Assembly (NCBI GenBank): GCA_000004985.1
Contig: GG738845.1
Length of the DNA stretch: 64,000 nt
Source of the DNA: Naegleria gruberi
Taxonomy: Eukaryota
Strand: one strand, 5' to 3'
Below are positions 46,287-63,285 of this stretch, in pieces (positions within the stretch are counted from its first letter, which is position 1; the number at the start of each line of letters is the position of its first letter). The translations under genes were made by a program, and so were the position numbers. Below the pieces are notes generated by a model that worked only from the letters and a program-made list of their open reading frames with translations, was not told the DNA's origin and ran no database searches.

Positions 46287-49200
46287 ATGTATTCCCAACA
46301 ACAATACTATCACGAGCAACAACATCACCAACAAATGATGATGGCTCAGCAACAACAAGCCTATAATCCTCAACAAGTTGTTGTTGTGCAAACTACAACT
46401 ACTACTTACCATCAACAGCCAATGTATCAACAATACAATATGTATGGCCAATATAATACGATGGAACAAAACTATGGTACGATTAATACAAACTATGAAC
46501 AACCAAGATCATTAGATACTTTGCCATTCTTTACAACAACTGAGTCGACTGATAGTCACAGTGACTTTGTTCCTCCTCCATTGTTCAATTTTGATAACTT
46601 GAATGTGGAAGCCCTTATTCAACCAACCTATCTTCCAATTGCAACCACTCAAATCAATAATGAGGTTACAAATACCAATAACGTTATAACCAACAATACT
46701 ACCATTAATAAGACCAATATTGTCAATACTGAAATTACAAATAACACTACAACCATTAATAACAATGTTACAAATCAAACTAATAAGATTAACAATGTTG
46801 CCAACACTAATAAGCAAGTTGTAAAAACAGTGGAAAAGAAGTCTGTCGTTAACAATCAAAATACTACAACAAACACTGTTAACAATCAAGTTATCAATAA
46901 TGTCACAACCAACAATATCTCAAAAACCGTTAATAACTCTGTCACTGTTAACGACACTACAGTTAATATTCAAAAGAATCATAATATCCAAACAGTAGAA
47001 ACTTCTGAAAATAATAAGAAAAATGTTACCACCAATGTTAGCGAAACAACAAAGGCTTCTGTCACAGTCCCAACCGTAGATCAAACTAGTAAGGTCACCA
47101 CTAGTAAGACTGTTGAAAAGAACACTACTATTGTGAATAACAGTGTTCCTGTTACTACCACTACAAGTACTCAAAAAACCGTAACTAGACCTCAATCAGC
47201 AACAAAAACAATTACCAATGCAACTACAAATGTTGTCAATAATCAAACAACAAATGTTGTTAACTCAAATACCACCAATACTGTTGTTAATAATACAGTT
47301 AATGTCACAAACAATACAACAACCACAGAAAACACCAAAACATTAGTCAGAACAAATACACAACCAAAACCAATCAGCCCAAGACCTACAAGTCCTGCAG
47401 GAAAGAAGGTTGTCGAAAACAATTCCACTATTGTTAACAATAATGCATCCAACGTGGTTAATAATACTGTTACCAATACCACTAAGGTTGTTGAAAATAA
47501 CACTGTTATCAATAATAATTCGACCAATGTAAAAACAATTGATACCAATACTCTTCAACCAACCACAACAACTCCAAGAAGACCAGTCAGTCCAAGGTTG
47601 AGTAATACCACTACTGCTACTAACACTGTTAAAGCTGTAAATCAAGTTGTTGAAAATAAGGCTGTAGTTAATAATAATCAGACAACGAATGTTGTTAATA
47701 ACACAACCAACAATGTTGTCAATAACAACACAACCACTAGTACTGAAACCACCAAGACTTTGGTTAGAACAAATACTCAACCAAGACCAATTAGTCCAAG
47801 ACCTCCAAGTCCTTCATGCAATAAGGTTGTTGAAAACACGTGCTCTAACGTTGTTAATAATTCTTCTAATGTTGTAAATAATGTGACCAATACAGTCACC
47901 AATAATACTACAACAAATGTTGTCAAAAACACAAACATTGTCAACAATACCAATGTTGTCAATAATAATACCAGTACAACATCTCAAAATACCAAGACTT
48001 TGGTTAGAACAAATACTCAACCAAAACCTATTAGCCCAAGACCAATTGTGGAAACTAATTGCTCCTCAGTTGTTGAAAATAATTCATGTAAGGTTGTTGA
48101 TAATGATTCAACTAAGGTAGTCAATAATTGCTCAAATGTAGTTAACAATGTCTCAACAACAGTAACCCAAAATGTTGTTACTAATACAGTAACAAACATT
48201 ACTAATACCACAAATACAGTGATTAGTAACACAAAGGTCGTTGAAAATAAGACTGTTATTAACAATGACTGCACAAACGTAAAGACCATTGAAAACAACA
48301 CCAATACTTCAACCCTTCAAGCAACCACCACAACTCCAAGAAGACCTGTCAGTCCAAGAGTCAATAGCTCTGCTAATGTAACAAGGACAGAACAAAACGT
48401 TGTTCAAAACTCTGTGACTAACAATGTTACAAATAATGTCACAAAGAATGTCGAAAATAATACTATTGTAAAGAATGAATCAAATTGTGTTAAAACAGTT
48501 ACTAACAATACAAAGGTTGAAAACAATACACTCCAAAACACCACCACAACTCCAAGAAGACCAGCAAGCCCTTCCCCTCAAACCACCACCAATTCAACTA
48601 GTAACACTGTTACAAAAACTATTGTCAATAACACTACAACAAACAGTAATACTACCATTATTAATAACAATGTTGTCAATAATACCTCTAATCAAACATC
48701 CAACACAACCAAATCCGTCAAACTTGAAAGTACAGTTAACAATAACCAACCAACTTCAATTACAGCAACCAAAACAGTGGAAACCAATACAAGTATTGTT
48801 AATAACAAGGCACCTGTCTCCACAACCACCACAACTCAAACTGCCTCAATTACAAGACCACAAAGTGCCACTAAGACGGTATCAAACACTACAACTGTAA
48901 CCAATAACCAAGAAATTAACAAGACCATTGTGAACAATACCACCAATAACATTATTAATAATACTATTATTGAAAAGAATATTACCAATAATGTTACAAA
49001 CAATGTTGTCAATAACCAGACAGTTAACAAGTCTATTGAACAAAATAATAACTCAACTGTAGAATGTATCAATAACAAGAAATGTAACATTACTAATACA
49101 GTTGAAAAGGTCAATGTTATTAATAATGTTACTTCAAATGTTACAAACAATATTACTCATGTCACTAACACAACCAACACTGTTACCAATAATGTTATTA

Positions 49201-50783
49201 ACAACACTAATGTGATCAACAACTCCACAGTTAATAAGAATGTTAGTGAAACAAACAATTCTTCCAAGTGCATTACAGATGAGACAAACATTTGCAATAA
49301 TAAGGCTATCACCAACCAAACCAACAAGTGCTCCGTTGAAAATAGTGAAAGAAAATGGGTAATTGAAGTTACAATTACCAACTTTAAATCAAACTTTTCT
49401 CACTTGATGGGAGTTTCTCCTCTCTATTCTTCAACTTTACAAACTTTGGAGAAGTATCAAGCCAATCTCATGAAGACTCTTGAATTGGCAACTGGAGATA
49501 ATACTCACAAGTTTATGACTTTGGCCAATCAAATCGATTCTGAATTTGAAAAGAATATAGGTTGGTTGACTAGAACAATTGTCATGCTCGAAAGAGAAAA
49601 GATTGCGTTCAACAACTGGACTGATAACCCTAATATTCCAAAATTTTTGTCTATGAATGTTGAACAACTCATTGAGGAGTGTAGAAAGCTACCTTCTGAT
49701 CCAAAATTTGATTCATCAGTCAAGACTCTTATTGAATACTTCCAAAAGTATGGCAAATTAGTACAATACTTGGTTCTTTTAAGATATTATTATACTAGTA
49801 TCCATAAAAAGTATGACGCCCCAAAGGTTGTCCTTGAAAGAACTACAAGATGTGGAGTTTCAAAGATGTATTCGGACAATGATTTTGACTTTACTGTTGA
49901 TTCCCTCAAGGTCAGTGTTGCCTATTGGTTAAGGCCTTGTCAATTCAGTGATAAGCCAATCTTGGTTGATTCTGCCGCTGGTATTGAAGTAAAGAATATC
50001 AGAAAGGGTCTTATCAACAATGCCTATTTTATCTCTGCACTCTATGCCATTTCATCAAAGAGACCAGAAATTATCAAGAATAGTTTTGTTGAAACTGATT
50101 TTGTTACGGGAAGACATACCATGAAGCTCTACAATTCTAATGGTCACCAAAAGTTTGTTTCAATTGATGATAGCATTCCTATTGAATATTTGGGTAAGCC
50201 TATTGGTGCCATCTCTGGAAATCCAAATGAATTCTGGGTGCAATTGTTAGAAAAATCTTACGCAAAACACTTGGGAGGTTATCATATGTATTGCCATGGT
50301 GGTAGACCCCAAGATGCTCTCCAATCATTGTTTGGAACGAAGATTAGCTTTGAAACCAAGTTAGGAAGTAGTTGCGACGTTTCATCTGTTTGGTCAAGAG
50401 TCGTTTCAGAATTCAACAATGGAAATCTCCTTCTTGTTTCAAATACTAAGGGCTACAATGAAATTACTGAAAATGATTGTCATGCTTATATTGTCCAACA
50501 AGTTGTTGAAGTAGAAGATGATAATAAGGTTGTTCACAAGCTTGTAAAGTTATTCAACCCATGGGGTTTCGCTTACAGCTCAAATGAGCAATTAACTGAG
50601 AAGGCATATGCTTGCATGGAATGGAAAGGTAAATACTCTGACAATGATTCATCATGGAATGAATCACTCTTGAAAAAACTTGATGTTAAGAGTGCTAATG
50701 ATGGCATATTTTGGATGTGTTGTGAAGATTTCTGTCGTCACTGGACTGAGGTAGTATCTGTTACTCTTCCTCGTGCTAAGTAA
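46287..50783 (+). CDS. Calpain-like protein with substituted catalytic Cys (pseudo-calpain), carrying a roughly 1000-residue Asn/Thr/Val-rich repetitive N-terminal region
   Basis: 1498-aa ORF. The C-terminal about 450 aa align to the calpain protease core. KGLINNAYFISALYAI corresponds to QG.LGDCWLLAALAAL with Ala in place of Cys. The His box NDCHAYIV and the Asn box LFNPWGFAY are retained, as is WVQLLEKSYAKHLGGY (WSALLEKAYAKL.GSY). The N-terminal region has repeated ...TKTLVRTNTQPKPISPRP... and TTTPRRPVSPR units. Confidence 0.7.
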   Translation: MYSQQQYYHEQQHHQQMMMAQQQQAYNPQQVVVVQTTTTTYHQQPMYQQYNMYGQYNTMEQNYGTINTNYEQPRSLDTLPFFTTTESTDSHSDFVPPPLFNFDNLNVEALIQPTYLPIATTQINNEVTNTNNVITNNTTINKTNIVNTEITNNTTTINNNVTNQTNKINNVANTNKQVVKTVEKKSVVNNQNTTTNTVNNQVINNVTTNNISKTVNNSVTVNDTTVNIQKNHNIQTVETSENNKKNVTTNVSETTKASVTVPTVDQTSKVTTSKTVEKNTTIVNNSVPVTTTTSTQKTVTRPQSATKTITNATTNVVNNQTTNVVNSNTTNTVVNNTVNVTNNTTTTENTKTLVRTNTQPKPISPRPTSPAGKKVVENNSTIVNNNASNVVNNTVTNTTKVVENNTVINNNSTNVKTIDTNTLQPTTTTPRRPVSPRLSNTTTATNTVKAVNQVVENKAVVNNNQTTNVVNNTTNNVVNNNTTTSTETTKTLVRTNTQPRPISPRPPSPSCNKVVENTCSNVVNNSSNVVNNVTNTVTNNTTTNVVKNTNIVNNTNVVNNNTSTTSQNTKTLVRTNTQPKPISPRPIVETNCSSVVENNSCKVVDNDSTKVVNNCSNVVNNVSTTVTQNVVTNTVTNITNTTNTVISNTKVVENKTVINNDCTNVKTIENNTNTSTLQATTTTPRRPVSPRVNSSANVTRTEQNVVQNSVTNNVTNNVTKNVENNTIVKNESNCVKTVTNNTKVENNTLQNTTTTPRRPASPSPQTTTNSTSNTVTKTIVNNTTTNSNTTIINNNVVNNTSNQTSNTTKSVKLESTVNNNQPTSITATKTVETNTSIVNNKAPVSTTTTTQTASITRPQSATKTVSNTTTVTNNQEINKTIVNNTTNNIINNTIIEKNITNNVTNNVVNNQTVNKSIEQNNNSTVECINNKKCNITNTVEKVNVINNVTSNVTNNITHVTNTTNTVTNNVINNTNVINNSTVNKNVSETNNSSKCITDETNICNNKAITNQTNKCSVENSERKWVIEVTITNFKSNFSHLMGVSPLYSSTLQTLEKYQANLMKTLELATGDNTHKFMTLANQIDSEFEKNIGWLTRTIVMLEREKIAFNNWTDNPNIPKFLSMNVEQLIEECRKLPSDPKFDSSVKTLIEYFQKYGKLVQYLVLLRYYYTSIHKKYDAPKVVLERTTRCGVSKMYSDNDFDFTVDSLKVSVAYWLRPCQFSDKPILVDSAAGIEVKNIRKGLINNAYFISALYAISSKRPEIIKNSFVETDFVTGRHTMKLYNSNGHQKFVSIDDSIPIEYLGKPIGAISGNPNEFWVQLLEKSYAKHLGGYHMYCHGGRPQDALQSLFGTKISFETKLGSSCDVSSVWSRVVSEFNNGNLLLVSNTKGYNEITENDCHAYIVQQVVEVEDDNKVVHKLVKLFNPWGFAYSSNEQLTEKAYACMEWKGKYSDNDSSWNESLLKKLDVKSANDGIFWMCCEDFCRHWTEVVSVTLPRAK
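46650..49350 (+). repeat. Coding tandem-repeat array (Asn/Thr/Val-rich units with an embedded TKTLVRTNTQP[KR]PISPRP motif repeated at least 3 times and a TTTPRRP[VA]SP motif repeated 3 times)
   Basis: Direct nucleotide repeats are visible, for example accaagactttggttagaacaaatactcaaccaa at about 47750 and about 47990, and caccaaaacattagtcagaacaaatacacaaccaaaaccaatcagcccaagacc at about 47330. Antisense shadow ORFs pile up across this interval. Confidence 0.7.
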
Positions 50784-53236: not shown

Positions 53237-55277
53237 TTATTTAGAAGCTTCTCTAATTTCCTTAATGAGCTTCTTCTTGTAAGCATCAATGTTATCCTTA
53301 TAAATCTTGACAGTACCCTTTTCAACTTGCCAGATTTGCTTATTTTCTATCTTATCAATCAATCTAAAATCGTGAGAAACTAAAACAACACCGCCAGAGT
53401 AGCAGTTGATAGCTTCAGCAAGAGAGTCAATTGTTTCAATATCAAGATGGCTGTAAAAAGATAAATTAGAAATTAAATTCAATCTAATATACTTACTTAG
53501 TAGGTTCGTCAAGGAACAAAATAAATGGCTTCTTAAGAGCTAACCAAGCAAAAATCAATCTTGATTTCAAACCATCTGAGAGACATTTAATTGGAGCAGT
53601 TTGACGTGTACCACTGATACCATAAGTACCAATAGCAGCTCTCATCATTTCTGTACCATTAGAGTTATTTTCAATAAGGTCTGGGAATTCCTTAAACATC
53701 CATTCTAAAGGAGTCATGTCTTCATCTAATTGCTAAATAAATAGTTAAAATTATTGACAGGTTATTAAAAACATACTTCAGTCAAATGTTGGTGGTAGTG
53801 ACCAATCTTCAAGTGGGAGTGAAGATTAATATCTCCAGAGACAGGTTTAAGTTGCTTAACCATGAGTTTCATCAATGTAGATTTACCAGCACCATTCTAT
53901 AAAGAGTGTTAAAAATTTCAATTAAGGATATACTATTGACTACTTACTGGACCGACGAGAGCAATACGGGAATCCATATCAACACCCAAAGATAGCTTAC
54001 TGAATAACAATGGAGGTTCTGGCATAATTTCAGTAGCTGGGTAGTGGAATGAGACTTCGTTAAATTGCAAAACTGGTGGTGGCAACTTTGGAACATCTGG
54101 GAATGTGAATTTGAAAATCTTGTCAGCAGTAACCTTTTCAGTTAAACCACTTCTCATCATCTTTTCAAGTTGTTTTTCCTTAGATTTGGCTTGTCTAGAC
54201 ATTTTGATGGATGTTTGACCGAACTTGGCAATATATTCCTTCATTCTACTGATATCATCTTGTTCAGATTGATATCTCTTCATTTGATTGACTTCTAATT
54301 CTTCTCTAGTCTTGCAGTAGGTATCATAATTACCTCCGTAATAAGTTAATCTTTGATCTTTGAGATGGATAATTGATGTACAGACATTGTTAAGGAAATC
54401 TTGAGAGTGGGAAATGATAATTAAAGAGTTTTCATATTCTTTGAGGTACATTTCAAGCCAGACACAAGTTTCAAGATCAAGATGGCTGTATATTATTAAT
54501 GGATGGAAATAAGATTGTAATTATATGAAAATAAGAATTAGGTCAAAAATCATAAAACACTTACTTTGTAGGTTCATCGAGAAGCAAAACATCAGGTTCA
54601 ATGAAAAGAGCTTCGGCCAACTTGATTCTCATTCTCCAACCACCGGAGAAATCCTTAGTTGCCTTCAATTGCATTTGAGGAGTAAAACCCAAACCGTGCA
54701 AAAGTTTAGCAGCCTTAGGTTTCGTCCATTCTGGATCTAATTCTTCCAACTTATCCATGATGAGTTCTTGTCTTTCAGTTGTTGTCTTTGGATCGTTCAA
54801 TTCCTTTTCTAATCTTTTACGTTCCTTATCGACACTTGATAAAACATAGTCAAGTGCACTCATATCGGTTGGTTTAGCTTCACCTTGTAAGTGATAAATT
54901 GAAATTTGCTTTGGAATAGGAATCATTCTTCTACCCAAAACTTTGAGAAGAGTGGATTTACCTGAACCATTCAAACCGATTAAACCGTATTTAACACCTC
55001 TATTCAAACAAAATTCAGTGTCATCAATAAGATCAACTGAGGCAGAGAGTTGTGGTGAAGAAATGGATATAGAAAAGTGTTCAAATTTCAAGTCCATAGA
55101 AAGTGGGTGAGAAACCAAATTACCAGTGGCTGAAATGTGAAGAGTTGTTGTGGAAGCATCTTGTTGAAGTTCGTGATTTTCGTCATCACTATCATAATCA
55201 ACCTTTGTTGGAGTGGTACTAGCAGGAGAAGGAGTATTGGATTTACCACCTTTCTTGTTATTCTTCTTTGGAGGCAT
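53237..55277 (-). CDS. ABCF-family ATP-binding cassette protein (GCN20/ABCF-like, two NBDs, no TMD), 606 aa. Five exons: 54565..55277, 53948..54485, 53777..53896, 53497..53732 and 53237..53450
   Basis: NBD1 has Walker [12 protein letters not shown], signature LSGGWRMR and Walker B LLLDEPTN (split by intron 1 after DEPT). NBD2 has Walker A VGP|NGAGKST (split by intron 2), signature LSDGLKSR and Walker [10 protein letters not shown] (split by intron 4). The four introns are 79, 51, 44 and 46 nt. They use GTAAGT or GTATGT donors, and all are phase-consistent with the track coordinates. Confidence 0.85.
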
Positions 55278-58714: not shown

Positions 58715-61700
58715 TTAAACAATTTCTGGTTTATCATTGACTGTTCTGTGGTGGGTTAAGGTTTGTCCAATTCCAACTGAGCTAGAGGTACCTGCTGTAA
58801 TCGGTTGACCAATGCTTGTTTGATCCTTTTCATCTGTGAAACTAGTACCCATATTTGTTTGATTTTTAAAGTTTCTGCCACTCTTATTTCCACCCTTTGA
58901 TTTGAACAATTTTCTTACAATTAAACAACAGCAACAAATAAAGCAAATCACACCGACAATAATAGCGTCATAAACATAACGATTATATCGAACATTATTG
59001 TAGTGCTCCATCAATTCATCAATATAGAGGAATGGATTTTCTTCACTGTCTTGTAATTCAAATTGGGATCTATTTGGGAAGTACCAATTGTAAAAGTTGT
59101 GTAACATTTCAACAACCTGTTCATTTGGTTTGGTTTGATTCATATCATCATTCAAACAAATGAATTTAGGTCTGTTTCTTCTCAATTCGTCCAATTGATC
59201 TCCAACTTTATCTTCATCATCTCTAATCATGTGGAATCCTACTTGAGATAAATCTTCCAATGTAAATGGAAAACGTTGTTCGCTCTTGTGTGCCTTTGTT
59301 TTAACAATATCGCTTAGGCCACTATTAACAAAATCTTCAAGAATTGGTTTAGTTCTGAATGCAGAGTCATCCATTGCTTGATATCGTGACAATACAAGCC
59401 TTGTATAATTGAGATGGCCATACAGGATATTTCTTACTGTTTGATGATACTCCTTAAATTCAGAAAAATCTTCAAAATAGGACCAAGATTTCCACTTCTT
59501 GTTACTCTTTGTACTGGCCCAGAAATAGGAACCAAATTCATCATCTTCTGAATTTTTTGTACTGTTTGTTGTTGCAGTTGTGTTAATAGGTGATGTACTA
59601 ATTTCTGGTGTTGGAGTCTTCTTTTTGCCCTTCTTAGTTTTCTTTTTTGGTTTTTCTAATCCTCCTCTTTCCTTTTTCATTTCATCATTAATTGTATTAA
59701 TACTAGATGTAATATTGGTATGTAAATCAGTTAATTTGGAGAGAGGTATCTTGTACTTGTGATACATCAAGTTAGCTAAATTTCTAATTTCATAATTATC
59801 CAAAACATTATCATTGTTTGTATCAACATGTTCCCTCAAAAATCTAGAGACATTATAGTGAATACCTTCATGCATTAAATAGTAGAAATAGGTAAATGTA
59901 TACTGCATATCACTTGAGGATCTAAATCTATTGGATGATGTGACATTGAATTCATATTCCCATTTCTTTTGAAGTTCGAACATAATGTCCCTATCAATCA
60001 TGTGAGGCATGTGAGCTGGTACCTTACGAGAGGCCCTACCATATTCTCTATTCAACAACTTATTCACATGAATTAAACTATCTCCAAACTTATCGAGGAG
60101 TTTTCTACCGATTCTAACAGGTGTGGAGCTTTCTGTGGTGACGCTGTTACTGCTGTCATCATAGTTTTCACTCTTGATTTCTCTTTCAATTCTCTTTTTG
60201 ATATTTTCATATTTTTCTTGATTCTTTTCCTTTTCTGCTAGATTGAAACGGAGGGAATTAACAATTTCTTCAGGATGAGATTGAACAATAGGAATTCTGT
60301 TAGAGTATGATGGTCGAATATTTGATGGAGACGAGATGCCCAATAACTTTCTGTTTTTCTTTTTTAACAACTTTTTCAAATATCTCAATTCATCACTATT
60401 GAGATTATCGATATTATAATTGTCGGCTTCTTGAGTTGGAGACTTTTCTGGTGTTTTAGGAACTTGCTGCTTCTCGGTTGCAATGACTGGATTGGTTTTG
60501 ATAACATTTTCAGAGATGTCATCAATTTCTGTTGCCTTTTCTTTTTGTTTGGTTTCTGTCTTGATATCAACAACTTTTTTAGTCAAATCATCTTCAATCT
60601 TTTTAGTGACAGGTTTGATTTCAGTATCCTTTTTAGCTTGTATAGTGTCGAGTGTACTAGTTGGGGTTTCTTTGGTGACAGTTTCCAAAGTATTCTTCAT
60701 TGGTTCAGTTTTCTTTTCCTCCAATTTAACTTGAGCTTTTTTGGTGTCAATAGATGCAGGACGAACAGCTTGGTTTTCAGTAATGACTGGATTGGTTTTG
60801 ATAACATTTTCAGAAATATCGTCAATTTCTGTTGCCTTGGTTTCTAACTTGGATCCAGATTGTTTCTTGGTATTTGTAACTGACTTGTCATTTTCTTGAG
60901 TATCAGAATTGATATTGTTCCAACTATTAAACCAATCAGTTTCAGGAGTTGTCTTGGTGGCTTTTTCTGCAGGTTTGGTGCTATTGTTCTTTCCAACAAT
61001 AGCATTAAGCTGAGTTTTAGAAAAGTAGGTAGAAACCACCAATGCCTTATTGTAGTTCTTGTCAGCTGCTAACTCTGATTCTTGTGATTCATGAATACCA
61101 AAAATGCTTGTTTCATTTGATAAGTTAAATTTTTTGGCAATGTAATTGAATGTATGATTTGAAACAACCTTTACGATGAAAGATTTTGTAATTGTCAATT
61201 TAGTGCCCAATTGTTCAAAAGTAGTGGAGTGAGTGTTTTGGAATGTATCAGTTTTGGAGGTATCATTAAGAACTCTCTCAGCTTCCAAAGAAACCGGGAC
61301 ATGTTCTTCATAGAAATTGGTATTGTTACTGTACTTGGTAACATTGGACTTGAGAGATTGATAATTAAAAGTGAATATGAGGAGCTTTTCCTTTTGTGAA
61401 ATTGTTGAACTTCTAACTAGCTTTTCATTTTCGTGATTGCCATTAGTAATTTGAGCATCTTTGAATATCTTACTCAAATCCAAGTAAATGGAAGGTTCTA
61501 TATTACGGACATAGATAACTGAAATGCTATTTTCCAATTGTACATGCTCCAATTCTGTCTTTAATTCCTTAAACTCGCAATCTCCAGCATCATAACCACA
61601 TTCTTTAACGTTACATGGTCTATCACAAAAACGATCACCAATCCATGAATCAGAACAAGAGGCTGAGCAATAATTCTTAGTATTAGTGGATGACCAAAAA

Positions 61701-63285
61701 CTATTAGAATTACTACCATAATTATAGTTACCACCATAGTTGCCATAACTTGATGAAGAGCTTGAAGATCCGTAAGAGAATCTCACATTTGGACCAACGC
61801 AATCACCACCATCAAAATCACATTGAGTAACATTGCAAGAAACGTCACAATAACCATCACCTAACCAAGATTCTTGGCATCCTTCATGGCATGGAGGAAC
61901 TTCCCAACTGAGGAATACTTTTTGTCCAGTTGAGTGACTATAAAAATCCTCTGGATACACATCGTTACCAAACATGACATCATCATTCAAGTAAATAAAC
62001 TTTTTAGAAAGGCCAGGAATTCTATGAATTTGAGATTCAATAGAAGGTGAGCTGAAAACTGGTAAATGGATTGGATTTCTGTAAACATCGGCATGTTTAA
62101 CAATTTTAACCTTTGGATTCTTTACGTTTAACCAGCTTGGCACTTGACCACTTGTCACAATATAAACATTTCTGACCCATGGAGCAAATCGTTCCAAACT
62201 ACGTAAACTGTATCTCAACTCATCATTATCTCTAAATCTGTTACTACTATTGGTATCATCAGTTTTGGTAGCATTCTTAGTTGTTGTACCATTGTTGATA
62301 ATTTCTGAGTCATTTTTAACTTTAGGAGTATTTTCCTTCTTTGATTTCTTAGTGGTCTTTTTTGTCAAAGCCTTGTTAGTTTTTGCTTTCTTTCCAGTGG
62401 CACCCTTTTTTTCAACCTTAGTATGTTGTTGTTTGGTAACTGGTGGTTTGGTTGTCTTTTTTGATGAATTGGTTTTCTTTGTAACAGGTGCTTTAGTCTT
62501 TTTGGTTACTTTGGCATTCTTATTGGTTTGAGGAATTGATTTCTTATTAGTTTCTTGTTTCTTCTTGCTTGTGGATTTCACAGAGAGTAATCTTCTTCTC
62601 TTCTTTGTTTTGTTTTCTTGTGTTTTCACATGTGCATTTCCTACTCCTTTCAAATGGTAATTATTGGTTGTTTTCTGATTGGATTTGCTAGAATCAGTAG
62701 TACTAGTAGTAGTAGTATTGGAAGACGTCTTGGTAGCAGCACTTTCAATTGTTTTAGTATTGTCAACATTAGATTTTTCTTCCTTCTCCTTTTCCAAAGC
62801 ATTAAATCGTTTCACTAAATTCTTGTGTATTGGATCGGAACCATTGACCCAAGTATAAACAATATCCATAGGTTCATAACACAATTTAGAAACTGAATTA
62901 ATTTTCATAATATTATCTCTATACATCCTATTACAATAATTTCCCAATTGTGATGCTTCATCATCCTATATTAAATATTTAAATAAATAATTTAAAAATT
63001 GAAATGTTAAAATTATTGAGAATAAATTCATTCGCATTATTATAAACTTACCACAAGGGTAGTCTTATCAGTGATGGAAATATCCAAAATAGATTGTAAC
63101 AAGTGCAATGCCGTATTTAAAGTAATAAATGTAATAATAATCAACAATATAGCACCCCATTTAGATGTTGCAAAGGAATAGAATGAACGTTGAATAGACT
63201 TTGAAAATTGATCATTAAAACAGGAACAACATTTCTTTCCTCTCTTATGATCCAATCCGACATTAGCAGTCGATGAGGGTAACAT
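58715..63285 (-). CDS. UDP-GlcNAc:lysosomal-enzyme N-acetylglucosamine-1-phosphotransferase alpha/beta-like (Stealth family with Notch LNR repeats). Two exons: 63052..63285 and 58715..62965, with an 86-nt intron
   Basis: Exon 1 gives a signal-anchor TM (WGAILLIIITFITLNTALHLL). The joined sequence ...LCYEPMDIVYTWVNGSDP is Stealth CR1, and IYLNDDVMFG is CR2. There are two LNR modules (CHEGCQESWLGDGYCDVSCNVTQCDFDGGDC and CSASCSDSWIGDRFCDRPCNVKECGYDAGDC). A C-terminal Stealth CR3/CR4-like region (HMPHMIDRDIMFELQKKW) and a C-terminal TM are present. Basic Lys/Thr low-complexity inserts are also present. Confidence 0.75.
60430..60860 (-). repeat. In-frame direct repeat inside the phosphotransferase gene: two 110-130 bp units about 300 bp apart
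   Basis: The protein shows KATEIDDISENVIKTNPVITENQAV... and KATEIDDISENVIKTNPVIATEKQQV.... The plus-strand shadow ORF shows NDWIGFDNIFRDVINFCCL and NDWIGFDNIFRNIVNFCCL. The nucleotide strings ...actggattggttttgataacattttcaga... occur at about 60487 and about 60787. Confidence 0.7.

What the first reader, a model, noticed from the sequence alone, without database searches (positions are those of the whole stretch)
49900..50783. Calpain-like domain with catalytic Cys replaced (Ala) but His and Asn retained: likely pseudoprotease
The calpain core aligns well at WVQLLEKSYAKHLGGY, the HAY His box and the NPWG Asn box. At the nucleophile position it reads NNAYFISAL where calpains have GDCWLLAAL. 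A cysteine protease fold without its Cys suggests a non-catalytic role, such as a scaffold, substrate trap or regulator. It is attached to an unusually long Asn/Thr repeat region of about 1000 residues.
Basis: partly seen in the sequence, partly recalled or inferred. Interest (0 to 1): 0.6.

Follow-up and report, generated by a model that had tools for sequence, protein, structure and literature searches.

The report
Naegleria calpain-like protein lacking catalytic cysteine
This is a real gene for a calpain-fold protein that lost its catalytic cysteine and its oxyanion-hole glutamine, and its Naegleria relatives share the loss, so it is very probably a non-cutting "dead" protease, a kind already well known in the calpain family.

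Summary
ORF 46287..50783 (+) encodes 1498 aa. Its C-terminus (aa 1196-1489) matches Pfam Peptidase_C2 (E 1.7e-37) and models confidently as a calpain protease core.

- **Active site:** three independent alignments put Ala1246 (GCC) at the nucleophile position. His1399 and Asn1424 are kept. The oxyanion-hole Gln is also lost (Lys1240), and so is the Ca-site-1 Asp (Asn1237).
- **Organism:** Naegleria (Heterolobosea), not a dictyostelid.
- **Orthologues:** N. lovaniensis and N. fowleri carry the same K...A pattern. A metagenomic relative has K...S.
- **Origin:** the Cys-less clade is monophyletic (100/100). It is sister (95/100) to a short N. gruberi paralogue that keeps Gln and Cys. The loss is therefore a single, old, fixed event after a duplication, not an error.
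- **Conservation:** the remodelled active-site segments are at least as conserved as the rest of the core. This argues for a retained binding surface.
- **Upstream parts:** a lineage-specific 8-helix domain with no known fold relative, about 890 aa of N/T/V low-complexity sequence, and a short N-terminus with conserved motifs.

About 9% of calpain homologues are non-peptidases (CAPN6, androglobin, kinetoplastid calpain-like proteins). This is a new member of a known kind, of modest interest.

The parts
46287..50783 (+). Whole gene: a single uninterrupted ORF of 1498 codons plus stop, with an A-rich context before the ATG.
   Evidence: It is colinear with the N. lovaniensis (1017 aa) and N. fowleri (923 aa) orthologues at both ends.
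46287..46676 (+). Q/T/Y-rich N-terminus (aa 1-130). Three short islands are conserved in three Naegleria species: QVVVVQTTTTTYHQQP (46374-46421), NYEQPRSLDTLPFF (46491-46532) and PPLFNFDNLNVEALIQPTYLP (46575-46637).
   Evidence: No Pfam match. Reading these islands as short linear binding motifs is inference.
46677..49346 (+). Low-complexity N/T/V region (aa 131-1020). Composition over aa 131-1065 is N 24%, T 23%, V 15%. It has degenerate 7-8-residue VVNNxTN-like units. Pro-rich modules are interspersed: TKTLVRTNTQP[KR]PISPRP x3, TTTTPRRPxSP x3 and TRPQSATKT x2.
   Evidence: The region is about 890 aa here, against about 410 aa in N. lovaniensis and about 350 aa in N. fowleri, so it evolves fast.
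49347..49871 (+). Lineage-specific all-helical domain (aa 1021-1195, eight helices) placed directly before the calpain core. The Cys-bearing N. gruberi paralogue P0006 shares it.
49872..50753 (+). Calpain protease-core (CysPc / Peptidase_C2) domain, aa 1196-1489. No C2-like or EF-hand domain follows, and the protein ends 9 residues later.
   Evidence: Pfam E 1.7e-37. AF2 pLDDT 89.3 and pTM 0.85. Foldseek top hits are calpain-3/1/9/5/8 cores, E 8e-21 to 1e-13, TM (target) 0.65-0.74.
49995..50024 (+). Decayed nucleophile motif N-I-R-K-G-L-I-N-N-A, where calpains have D-I-x-Q-G-x-L-G-D-C. Asn1237 sits at the Ca-site-1 Asp (49995-49997). Lys1240 sits at the oxyanion-hole Gln (50004-50006). Ala1246 sits at the catalytic Cys (50022-50024, GCC).
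   Evidence: The Ca-site residues are taken from Rawlings 2015.
50466..50483 (+). Remodelled pre-His strand T-E-N-D-C-H. Thr1394 replaces a 99%-conserved Gly. Cys1398 (50478-50480) lies immediately before the retained catalytic His1399 (50481-50483).
   Evidence: TE(N/T)DCHAY is identical in all four Cys-less orthologues. The AF2 model is uncertain at aa 1392-1394.
50553..50564 (+). F-N-P-W box. Asn1424 (50556-50558) and Trp1426 are retained. The usual Arg before the Asn is Phe here (Lys in P0001).
50568..50618 (+). 17-residue helical insert after NPWG (FAYSSNEQLTEKAYACM). The Naegleria paralogue P0006 shares it. P0007 and classical calpains lack it.

Best explanation
The gene encodes a non-catalytic calpain homologue (a pseudoprotease) of Naegleria.

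**Origin.** A calpain with a lineage-specific N-terminal helical domain was duplicated. One copy stayed short and kept Gln/Cys/His/Asn (N. gruberi XP_002675459). In the other copy the whole nucleophile loop was rewritten: Asp to Asn/Arg, Gln to Lys, Gly to Asn, Cys to Ala/Ser. That copy also acquired a long N/T/V low-complexity arm and an N-terminus with conserved short motifs.

**Proposed mechanism.** With no thiol nucleophile and no oxyanion-hole Gln, it cannot run the papain-type acyl-enzyme mechanism. The fold, the His-Asn-Trp cluster, the Gly-Gly and backbone elements that hold a substrate strand, and the new residues themselves are all conserved. The former cleft therefore most likely still binds a peptide or partner without cutting it. 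The protein would act as a binding or scaffolding module. It may also compete with the active sister paralogue, with which it shares the helical domain. The low-complexity arm and the N-terminal motifs would tether it to other components.

**Shown:** the fold, the residue replacements, their conservation and the single origin of the loss.
**Inferred:** ligand binding, competition with the paralogue, and the role of the arm.
For: - **Fold:** Pfam Peptidase_C2 match at E 1.7e-37. Confident AF2 model (pLDDT 89.3, pTM 0.85) that superposes on solved calpain cores.
- **Active-site residues:** Ala at the nucleophile and Lys at the oxyanion-hole Gln, in three independent alignments.
- **Rarity of the pattern:** among 149 aligned calpain domains, 132 have Cys and 135 have Gln. 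Only this clade combines Lys with Ala/Ser.
- **Orthologues:** N. lovaniensis, N. fowleri and the metagenomic P0001 share the pattern.
- **Single origin:** the clade is monophyletic at 100/100 and sister to the Cys-bearing N. gruberi P0006 at 95/100 in an NJ bootstrap.
- **Where the changes fall:** of 46 columns that are at least 80% conserved in calpains, the changes common to all four orthologues cluster in the nucleophile motif (5 positions), with Thr1349 to Phe, Gly1394 to Thr and Arg1423 to Phe/Lys elsewhere. The rest is retained.
- **Constraint on the remodelled site:** former active-site segments are 64-82% identical between orthologues, against 53-61% for the whole core.
- **Divergence from the family profile:** the Pfam score is 123-130 bits in the Cys-less proteins, against 189-249 bits in the Cys-bearing relatives.
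- **Precedent:** non-peptidase calpain homologues are described as protein-binding proteins (Rawlings 2015; H49 and CAP5.5; CAPN6).
Against: - No biochemical, expression or localisation data exist for this protein or its orthologues (one search found nothing).
- His and Asn are both retained, which is not required of a mere scaffold.
- One orthologue has Ser at the nucleophile position. In principle Ser can act as a nucleophile.
- A conserved Cys sits next to the His.
- Binding of a ligand in the cleft and any relation to the paralogue are pure inference.
Confidence: 0.75

Rival explanations
1. Cytoskeletal or structural scaffold, in the manner of kinetoplastid calpain-like proteins. The dead calpain domain would anchor the protein to microtubules or another cytoskeletal element. 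The long repetitive arm would act as a spacer or filament component. There would be no functional link to the active paralogue.
For: The architecture is analogous to T. cruzi H49/calpain: a large repeat region plus calpain-like domains that lack the triad, associated with the cytoskeleton. Naegleria and kinetoplastids both belong to Discoba (own knowledge). CAPN6 is a non-proteolytic calpain linked to the cytoskeleton and to microtubule acetylation.
Against: The repeats here are low-complexity N/T/V sequence, not 68-aa units. Their length differs about two-fold between Naegleria species. The nearest relative in the tree is a Naegleria calpain, and no kinetoplastid sequence groups with it. No localisation data exist.
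Confidence: 0.25
2. Still an active peptidase that uses a relocated or alternative nucleophile. Cys1398, directly before His1399 and conserved in all Cys-less orthologues, or Ser in the P0001 orthologue, would take over from the lost Cys.
For: TE(N/T)DCHAY is invariant in the four orthologues. Cys at the His-1 position occurs in only 6 of 149 domains, and 4 of those are this clade. His, Asn and Trp are retained.
Against: The oxyanion-hole Gln is Lys in all four. The His-1 position is variable in calpains (G, N, S, C, R and others), so a Cys there need not mean anything. In papain-fold enzymes the His-1 side chain lies several angstroms from the imidazole and its main-chain carbonyl binds the substrate (own knowledge, not measured here). 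The three Naegleria species have Ala, not Ser, at position 1246.
Confidence: 0.05
3. Artefact or decaying pseudogene: a sequencing or assembly error at the Cys codon, or a gene no longer under selection.
For: None beyond the missing Cys. The N. fowleri gene models are truncated or frameshifted.
Against: The ORF is an intact 4.5 kb. GCC differs from TGY at two bases. The same replacements occur in three other independently sequenced genomes or metagenomes. The core is 53-61% identical and the helical domain 64-78% identical across orthologues, while the low-complexity region diverges freely in length.
Confidence: 0.01

Closest known systems
Non-peptidase homologues of peptidase family C2 (calpain-6/calpamodulin, androglobin, C. 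elegans clp-3)
   Same: They have a calpain protease-core fold with the nucleophilic Cys replaced, and are presumed to bind proteins rather than cut them (Rawlings 2015; CAPN6 is described as non-proteolytic).
   Different: According to Rawlings 2015, those proteins have also lost the His. Here His and Asn are kept, and the oxyanion-hole Gln and the Ca-site-1 Asp are lost. This protein has no C2-like domain. The loss is an independent event inside Naegleria.
Kinetoplastid calpain-like proteins H49/calpain (T. cruzi) and CAP5.5 (T. brucei)
   Same: They are protist calpain-like proteins lacking a full C-H-N triad. In H49 the calpain-like domains are joined to a very large, lineage-specifically expanded repetitive region, and a structural role is proposed.
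   Different: H49 has regular 68-aa tandem repeats flanked by calpain domains II and III. Here the region is N/T/V low-complexity sequence placed N-terminal to a single core, with a unique helical domain. There is no evidence of direct orthology.
N. gruberi XP_002675459 (P0006), the Cys-bearing sister paralogue
   Same: It has the same helical domain, calpain core and post-NPWG insert. Identity is about 40% over 478 aa.
   Different: It is only 485 aa long and has no low-complexity arm. It keeps Asp, Gln, Gly and Cys in the nucleophile motif, and has Gly and Met where this protein has Thr1394 and Phe1423. It is presumably an active peptidase.
Dictyostelium Cpl
   Same: It is a calpain-like protein of an amoeboid protist with a low-complexity N-terminal region (own recollection of Huang et al. 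2003; the paper was not read here).
   Different: Zhao et al. 2012 found no significant CysPc hit in Cpl, whereas this protein matches Peptidase_C2 at E 1.7e-37. The organism here is Naegleria (Heterolobosea), not a dictyostelid.
Plasmodium SERA5 (papain-fold pseudoprotease with Ser at the Cys position)
   Same: It is a clan CA fold with the nucleophile replaced, as in the P0001 orthologue, which has Ser. It appears as a weak structural match.
   Different: It belongs to a different family (C1, not C2) and is secreted. The structural match is only marginal (E about 0.03-0.1).

Membership tests
Calpain family (MEROPS C2 / Pfam PF00648 Peptidase_C2), homology | Significant match to the Peptidase_C2 profile above the gathering score | tested here: met
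   129.5 bits against a cut-off of 23.8, E 1.7e-37, profile positions 2-293 of 297.
Calpain family (MEROPS C2 / Pfam PF00648 Peptidase_C2), homology | Two-lobed calpain protease-core fold | tested here: met
   AF2 pLDDT 89.3. The 38 best Foldseek PDB matches are all calpain cores, E down to 8e-21.
Active calpain peptidases | Nucleophilic Cys | tested here: not met
   Ala1246 in three independent alignments. Ala/Ala/Ser in the orthologues.
Active calpain peptidases | Oxyanion-hole Gln N-terminal to the Cys | tested here: not met
   Lys1240. Gln occurs in 135 of 149 aligned domains, and Lys occurs only in this clade.
Active calpain peptidases | General-base His and orienting Asn | tested here: met
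   His1399 and Asn1424 are aligned and conserved.
Active calpain peptidases | Ca2+-binding sites of the protease core (site 1 Asp/Glu; site 2 Glu/Asp/Glu) | tested here: inconclusive
   The site-1 Asp is Asn1237 (Arg in the orthologues), while the Glu of LLEK is kept. The site-2 Glu and Asp are kept, and the DGE Glu is Ile (residue list). Many non-classical calpains also lack these sites.
Active calpain peptidases | Measured proteolytic activity | not testable with these tools
   Needs a recombinant protein assay.
Non-peptidase homologues of family C2 | C2 fold with at least one catalytic residue replaced in a full-length, conserved gene | tested here: met
   The definition follows Rawlings 2015.
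Classical calpains | C2-like (Calpain_III) and penta-EF-hand domains after the core | tested here: not met
   There is no other Pfam domain, and the protein ends 9 residues after the core.
Calpain-7 / PalB type | MIT domain(s) N-terminal to the core | tested here: not met
Dictyostelium Cpl-like proteins | Orthology or sequence similarity to Cpl | not tested
The literature says Cpl lacks a significant CysPc match. The nearest relatives of this protein are from Naegleria.

The most novel reading that the evidence does not exclude
The rewritten active site is not dead but repurposed. The invariant T-E-x-D-C-H segment (Cys1398 next to His1399), together with Lys1240, would form a new catalytic or metal-binding centre. 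That would make this a calpain-fold enzyme with a relocated nucleophile. Alternatively, the protein could be a cFLIP-like partner that pairs with, and controls, the active sister calpain through the shared helical domain.
Probability: 0.07. Interest if true: 0.6.

Novelty: new member of a known kind. Interest (0 to 1): 0.25.

Why it matters
Modestly.

- It documents an independent loss of the calpain nucleophile in Heterolobosea, a loss conserved across Naegleria species.
- An active sister paralogue is available for comparison. That makes a clean natural pair for asking what a dead calpain core does.
- One of the orthologues is in the pathogen N. fowleri.
- It corrects the taxonomic assumption: the window is from Naegleria, not a dictyostelid.
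- It does not change what is known about calpains, because non-peptidase homologues make up roughly a tenth of the family.

Tried and rejected
- **Homologue searches:** The search for homologous proteins, with the domain and with a clade profile, returned only three proteins. It never returned the NCBI Naegleria entries. The orthologues came from the exhaustive representative search and were named through the cluster look-up. The exact window protein and two neighbouring proteins are not in the collection, so the species could not be fixed. GC of 33% and the tree position suggest N. gruberi or a close relative.
- **AlphaFold database search:** afdb50 was not available.
- **Repeat region:** Tandem Repeats Finder found only 2-3-copy arrays of period 12-24 nt, so 'repeat region' is better described as low complexity with a few duplicated modules. 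I ran no further search on it.
- **Literature:** a search for the orthologues' locus tags found no paper.
- **Alternative cysteine:** a nearby alternative Cys could be assessed only by sequence, because model coordinates are not exposed. Of the eight Cys in the core, only Cys1218 and Cys1398 are invariant in the clade. Cys1218 is also present in the Cys-bearing paralogues P0006 and P0007, so it is not a replacement nucleophile.
- **dN/dS:** not attempted. At 55-67% protein identity, synonymous sites are saturated.
Full report
**What is there.** The finding lies at the 3' end of one long uninterrupted ORF, window 46287..50783 on the + strand, 1498 codons. The ATG has an A-rich context. The flanking genes are ordinary eukaryotic ones: a SAGA-Tad1-like gene, a mitochondrial-type IF3, spermidine synthase, an ABC-F gene and a Stealth/LNR protein. 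The window is 28-37% G+C, mostly about 33%. Pfam finds one family in the protein, Peptidase_C2 (PF00648), at aa 1196-1489 (nt 49872-50753), with E 1.7e-37 and 129.5 bits against a gathering score of 23.8.

**The catalytic positions.** Three alignments made in different ways agree.
- phmmer against solved calpain cores aligns 'kglinnAyfisal' to calpain-1 'qgalgdCwllaai' and calpain-5 'qgqvgnCwfvaac'. HAY aligns on HAY and NPWG on NPWG.
- A MAFFT alignment of this domain with 148 other calpain domains from the exhaustive search gives Cys in 132 and Gln (oxyanion hole) in 135. The window protein has Ala and Lys.
- A profile HMM built only from the 144 domains outside this clade aligns 'vkqGalgdCyfLsal' with 'IRKGLINNAYFISAL' at high posterior probability.

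So the refutation criterion, a Cys placed on the nucleophile, is not met. The Ala codon is GCC (50022-50024), two substitutions away from TGY. His1399 (50481-50483), Asn1424 (50556-50558) and Trp1426 are retained.

The Asp at the head of the motif is Asn1237. In rat calpain-2 this Asp is Asp96 of Ca2+ site 1 (Rawlings 2015).

I then looked at the 46 columns that are at least 80% conserved among calpains. The positions changed in all members of this clade are D1237, Q1240, L1243, G1244 and C1246, which is the whole nucleophile motif. Three further positions are changed in all members: T1349F, G1394T and R1423F/K. Nearly everything else is kept: DD-P, E-W, LLEKAYAK, GG, HAY, NPWG, EW-G-SD and DG-FWM.

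**Fold.** An AlphaFold2 model of aa 1071-1498, made with a 52-sequence alignment, is confident: mean pLDDT 89.3 and pTM 0.85. The only very weak spot is aa 1392-1394, just before the His. Foldseek against the PDB returns calpain-3, -1, -9, -5, -8 and -2 protease cores as the 38 best matches, with E from 8e-21 to 2e-13 and target-normalised TM of 0.65-0.74 for the isolated cores.

**Organism and relatives.** The exhaustive HMMER search and the cluster look-up show otherwise.
- The nearest proteins are Naegleria lovaniensis XP_044544587 (1017 aa, 65% identical over the C-terminal 427 aa) and N. fowleri XP_044563634.
- There is also a metagenomic fragment (P0001, 56%).
- Next comes N. gruberi XP_002675459 (P0006, 485 aa, about 40%).

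At the nucleophile position the two Naegleria orthologues read INNAYFISAV (Ala) and P0001 reads INTSYFISAI (Ser). All have Lys for the Gln and all have ...DCHAY. P0006, P0007 and P0010 keep D, Q, G and C.

A neighbour-joining tree of 24 domains gives the Cys-less clade 100/100 bootstrap support. It places N. gruberi P0006 as its sister at 95/100. Within the clade the window sequence branches outside N. lovaniensis plus N. fowleri. Together with the 33% G+C, this fits N. gruberi or a close relative. This is an inference, because the exact protein is not in the collection.

The loss is therefore one old event following a gene duplication, fixed across species. It is not an error and not a decaying pseudogene.

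**Constraint.** Between the window protein and the most distant orthologue, the calpain core is 53% identical (156/292). The former Cys loop and helix is 65% (11/17), the pre-His/His strand 64% (9/14), the Asn/Trp box 70% (7/10) and the EKAYAK region 73% (19/26). Against N. lovaniensis the figures are 61% for the core and 77-86% for these segments. The replacement residues (K, I, N, T-E-x-D-C) are themselves invariant. So the rewritten site is under purifying selection. This is what one expects of a surface that still does something, most simply binding.

The Pfam score is lower in the Cys-less proteins (123-130 bits) than in the Cys-bearing relatives (189-249 bits), which reflects this divergence.

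**The rest of the protein.**
- **Low-complexity arm.** Aa 131-1020 is about N 24%, T 23% and V 15% (measured over aa 131-1065). It has weak 7-8-residue periodicity, only short tandem arrays, and three kinds of duplicated Pro-rich modules. It is about 890 aa here, against about 410 and 350 aa in the other two species, so it is expanding and contracting freely.
- **N-terminus.** The first 130 aa contain three islands conserved in all three species. One is PPLFNFDNL..AL..P.YLP. These may be short linear binding motifs (inference). No signal-peptide-like hydrophobic stretch is visible.
- **C-terminus.** No C2-like or EF-hand domain follows the core.

**How it most likely works.** Without the thiol and without the oxyanion-hole Gln, the papain-type mechanism cannot run. 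The protein is best read as a non-peptidase calpain homologue. Its cleft would hold rather than cut a partner, and it is attached to a long flexible, possibly multivalent arm. It shares its unusual helical domain and post-NPWG insert with an apparently active sister calpain of the same genus. A decoy or regulatory relation to that enzyme is therefore plausible. A purely structural, cytoskeletal role like that proposed for the kinetoplastid H49/calpain and CAP5.5 is the main alternative. Neither can be decided here.

It is unlikely for two reasons: the Gln is lost, and the His-1 position is variable in calpains.

**Comparison with what is known.** Rawlings (2015) counted 337 of 3795 calpain homologues as non-peptidases. 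He names calpamodulin (CAPN6), androglobin and C. elegans clp-3 as lacking the Cys. Kinetoplastids have many such proteins, including H49, which joins them to a huge repeat region. Zhao et al. (2012) noted that N. gruberi has many calpain genes, and that Dictyostelium Cpl has no significant CysPc match. No paper mentioning these Naegleria loci was found, and the databases call them hypothetical or 'calpain catalytic domain-containing'.

**Verdict.** This is a new member of a known kind, and the interest is low to moderate.

Noticed in passing
window 46374-46637: The orthologues of N. lovaniensis and N. fowleri share three short conserved islands in the otherwise low-complexity N-terminus: QVVVVQTTTTTYHQQP, NYEQPRSLDTLPFF and PPLFNFDNLNVEALIQPTYLP. 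LFNFD fits the clathrin-box pattern L-phi-x-phi-[DE] as I recall it. This was not tested.
   Followed up: partly
window 46677-49346: Duplicated Pro-rich modules with Ser-Pro sites sit inside the N/T/V region: TKTLVRTNTQP[KR]PISPRP x3, TTTTPRRP[VA]SP x3 and TRPQSATKT x2. The region is about twice as long as in the two other Naegleria species.
   Followed up: partly
P0153 and P0005 (N. fowleri orthologue models): The NCBI model stops early at ...SNWNDF, inside the calpain core. The ENA version diverges after EYLGK as if frameshifted. The N. fowleri gene models for this locus look damaged or mis-called.
   Followed up: no
window 50568-50618: A 17-residue helical insert directly after NPWG is shared with the Cys-bearing N. 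gruberi paralogue P0006. P0007 and the solved calpains lack it.
   Followed up: partly
window 58715-62947 (-): A 1410-aa ORF carries Stealth CR1-CR4 regions and LNR (Notch) repeats, giving a GlcNAc-1-phosphotransferase-like architecture.
   Followed up: no
window 53933-54451 and 54561-55277 (-): ABC_tran and ABC_tran_Xtn domains lie on two adjacent ORFs. This is probably one ABC-F gene split by an intron.
   Followed up: no
model m4c1651022882 against PDB 7sqc chains 1A-1D: Foldseek matches at E about 2e-5 to large proteins of the Chlamydomonas ciliary C1 central-pair apparatus. This hints at calpain-like folds in ciliary proteins. Naegleria makes flagella.
   Followed up: no
tools: the search for homologous proteins did not return the NCBI Naegleria proteins, although they are representatives in its own collection. 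The exhaustive representative search was needed to find the orthologues.
   Followed up: yes
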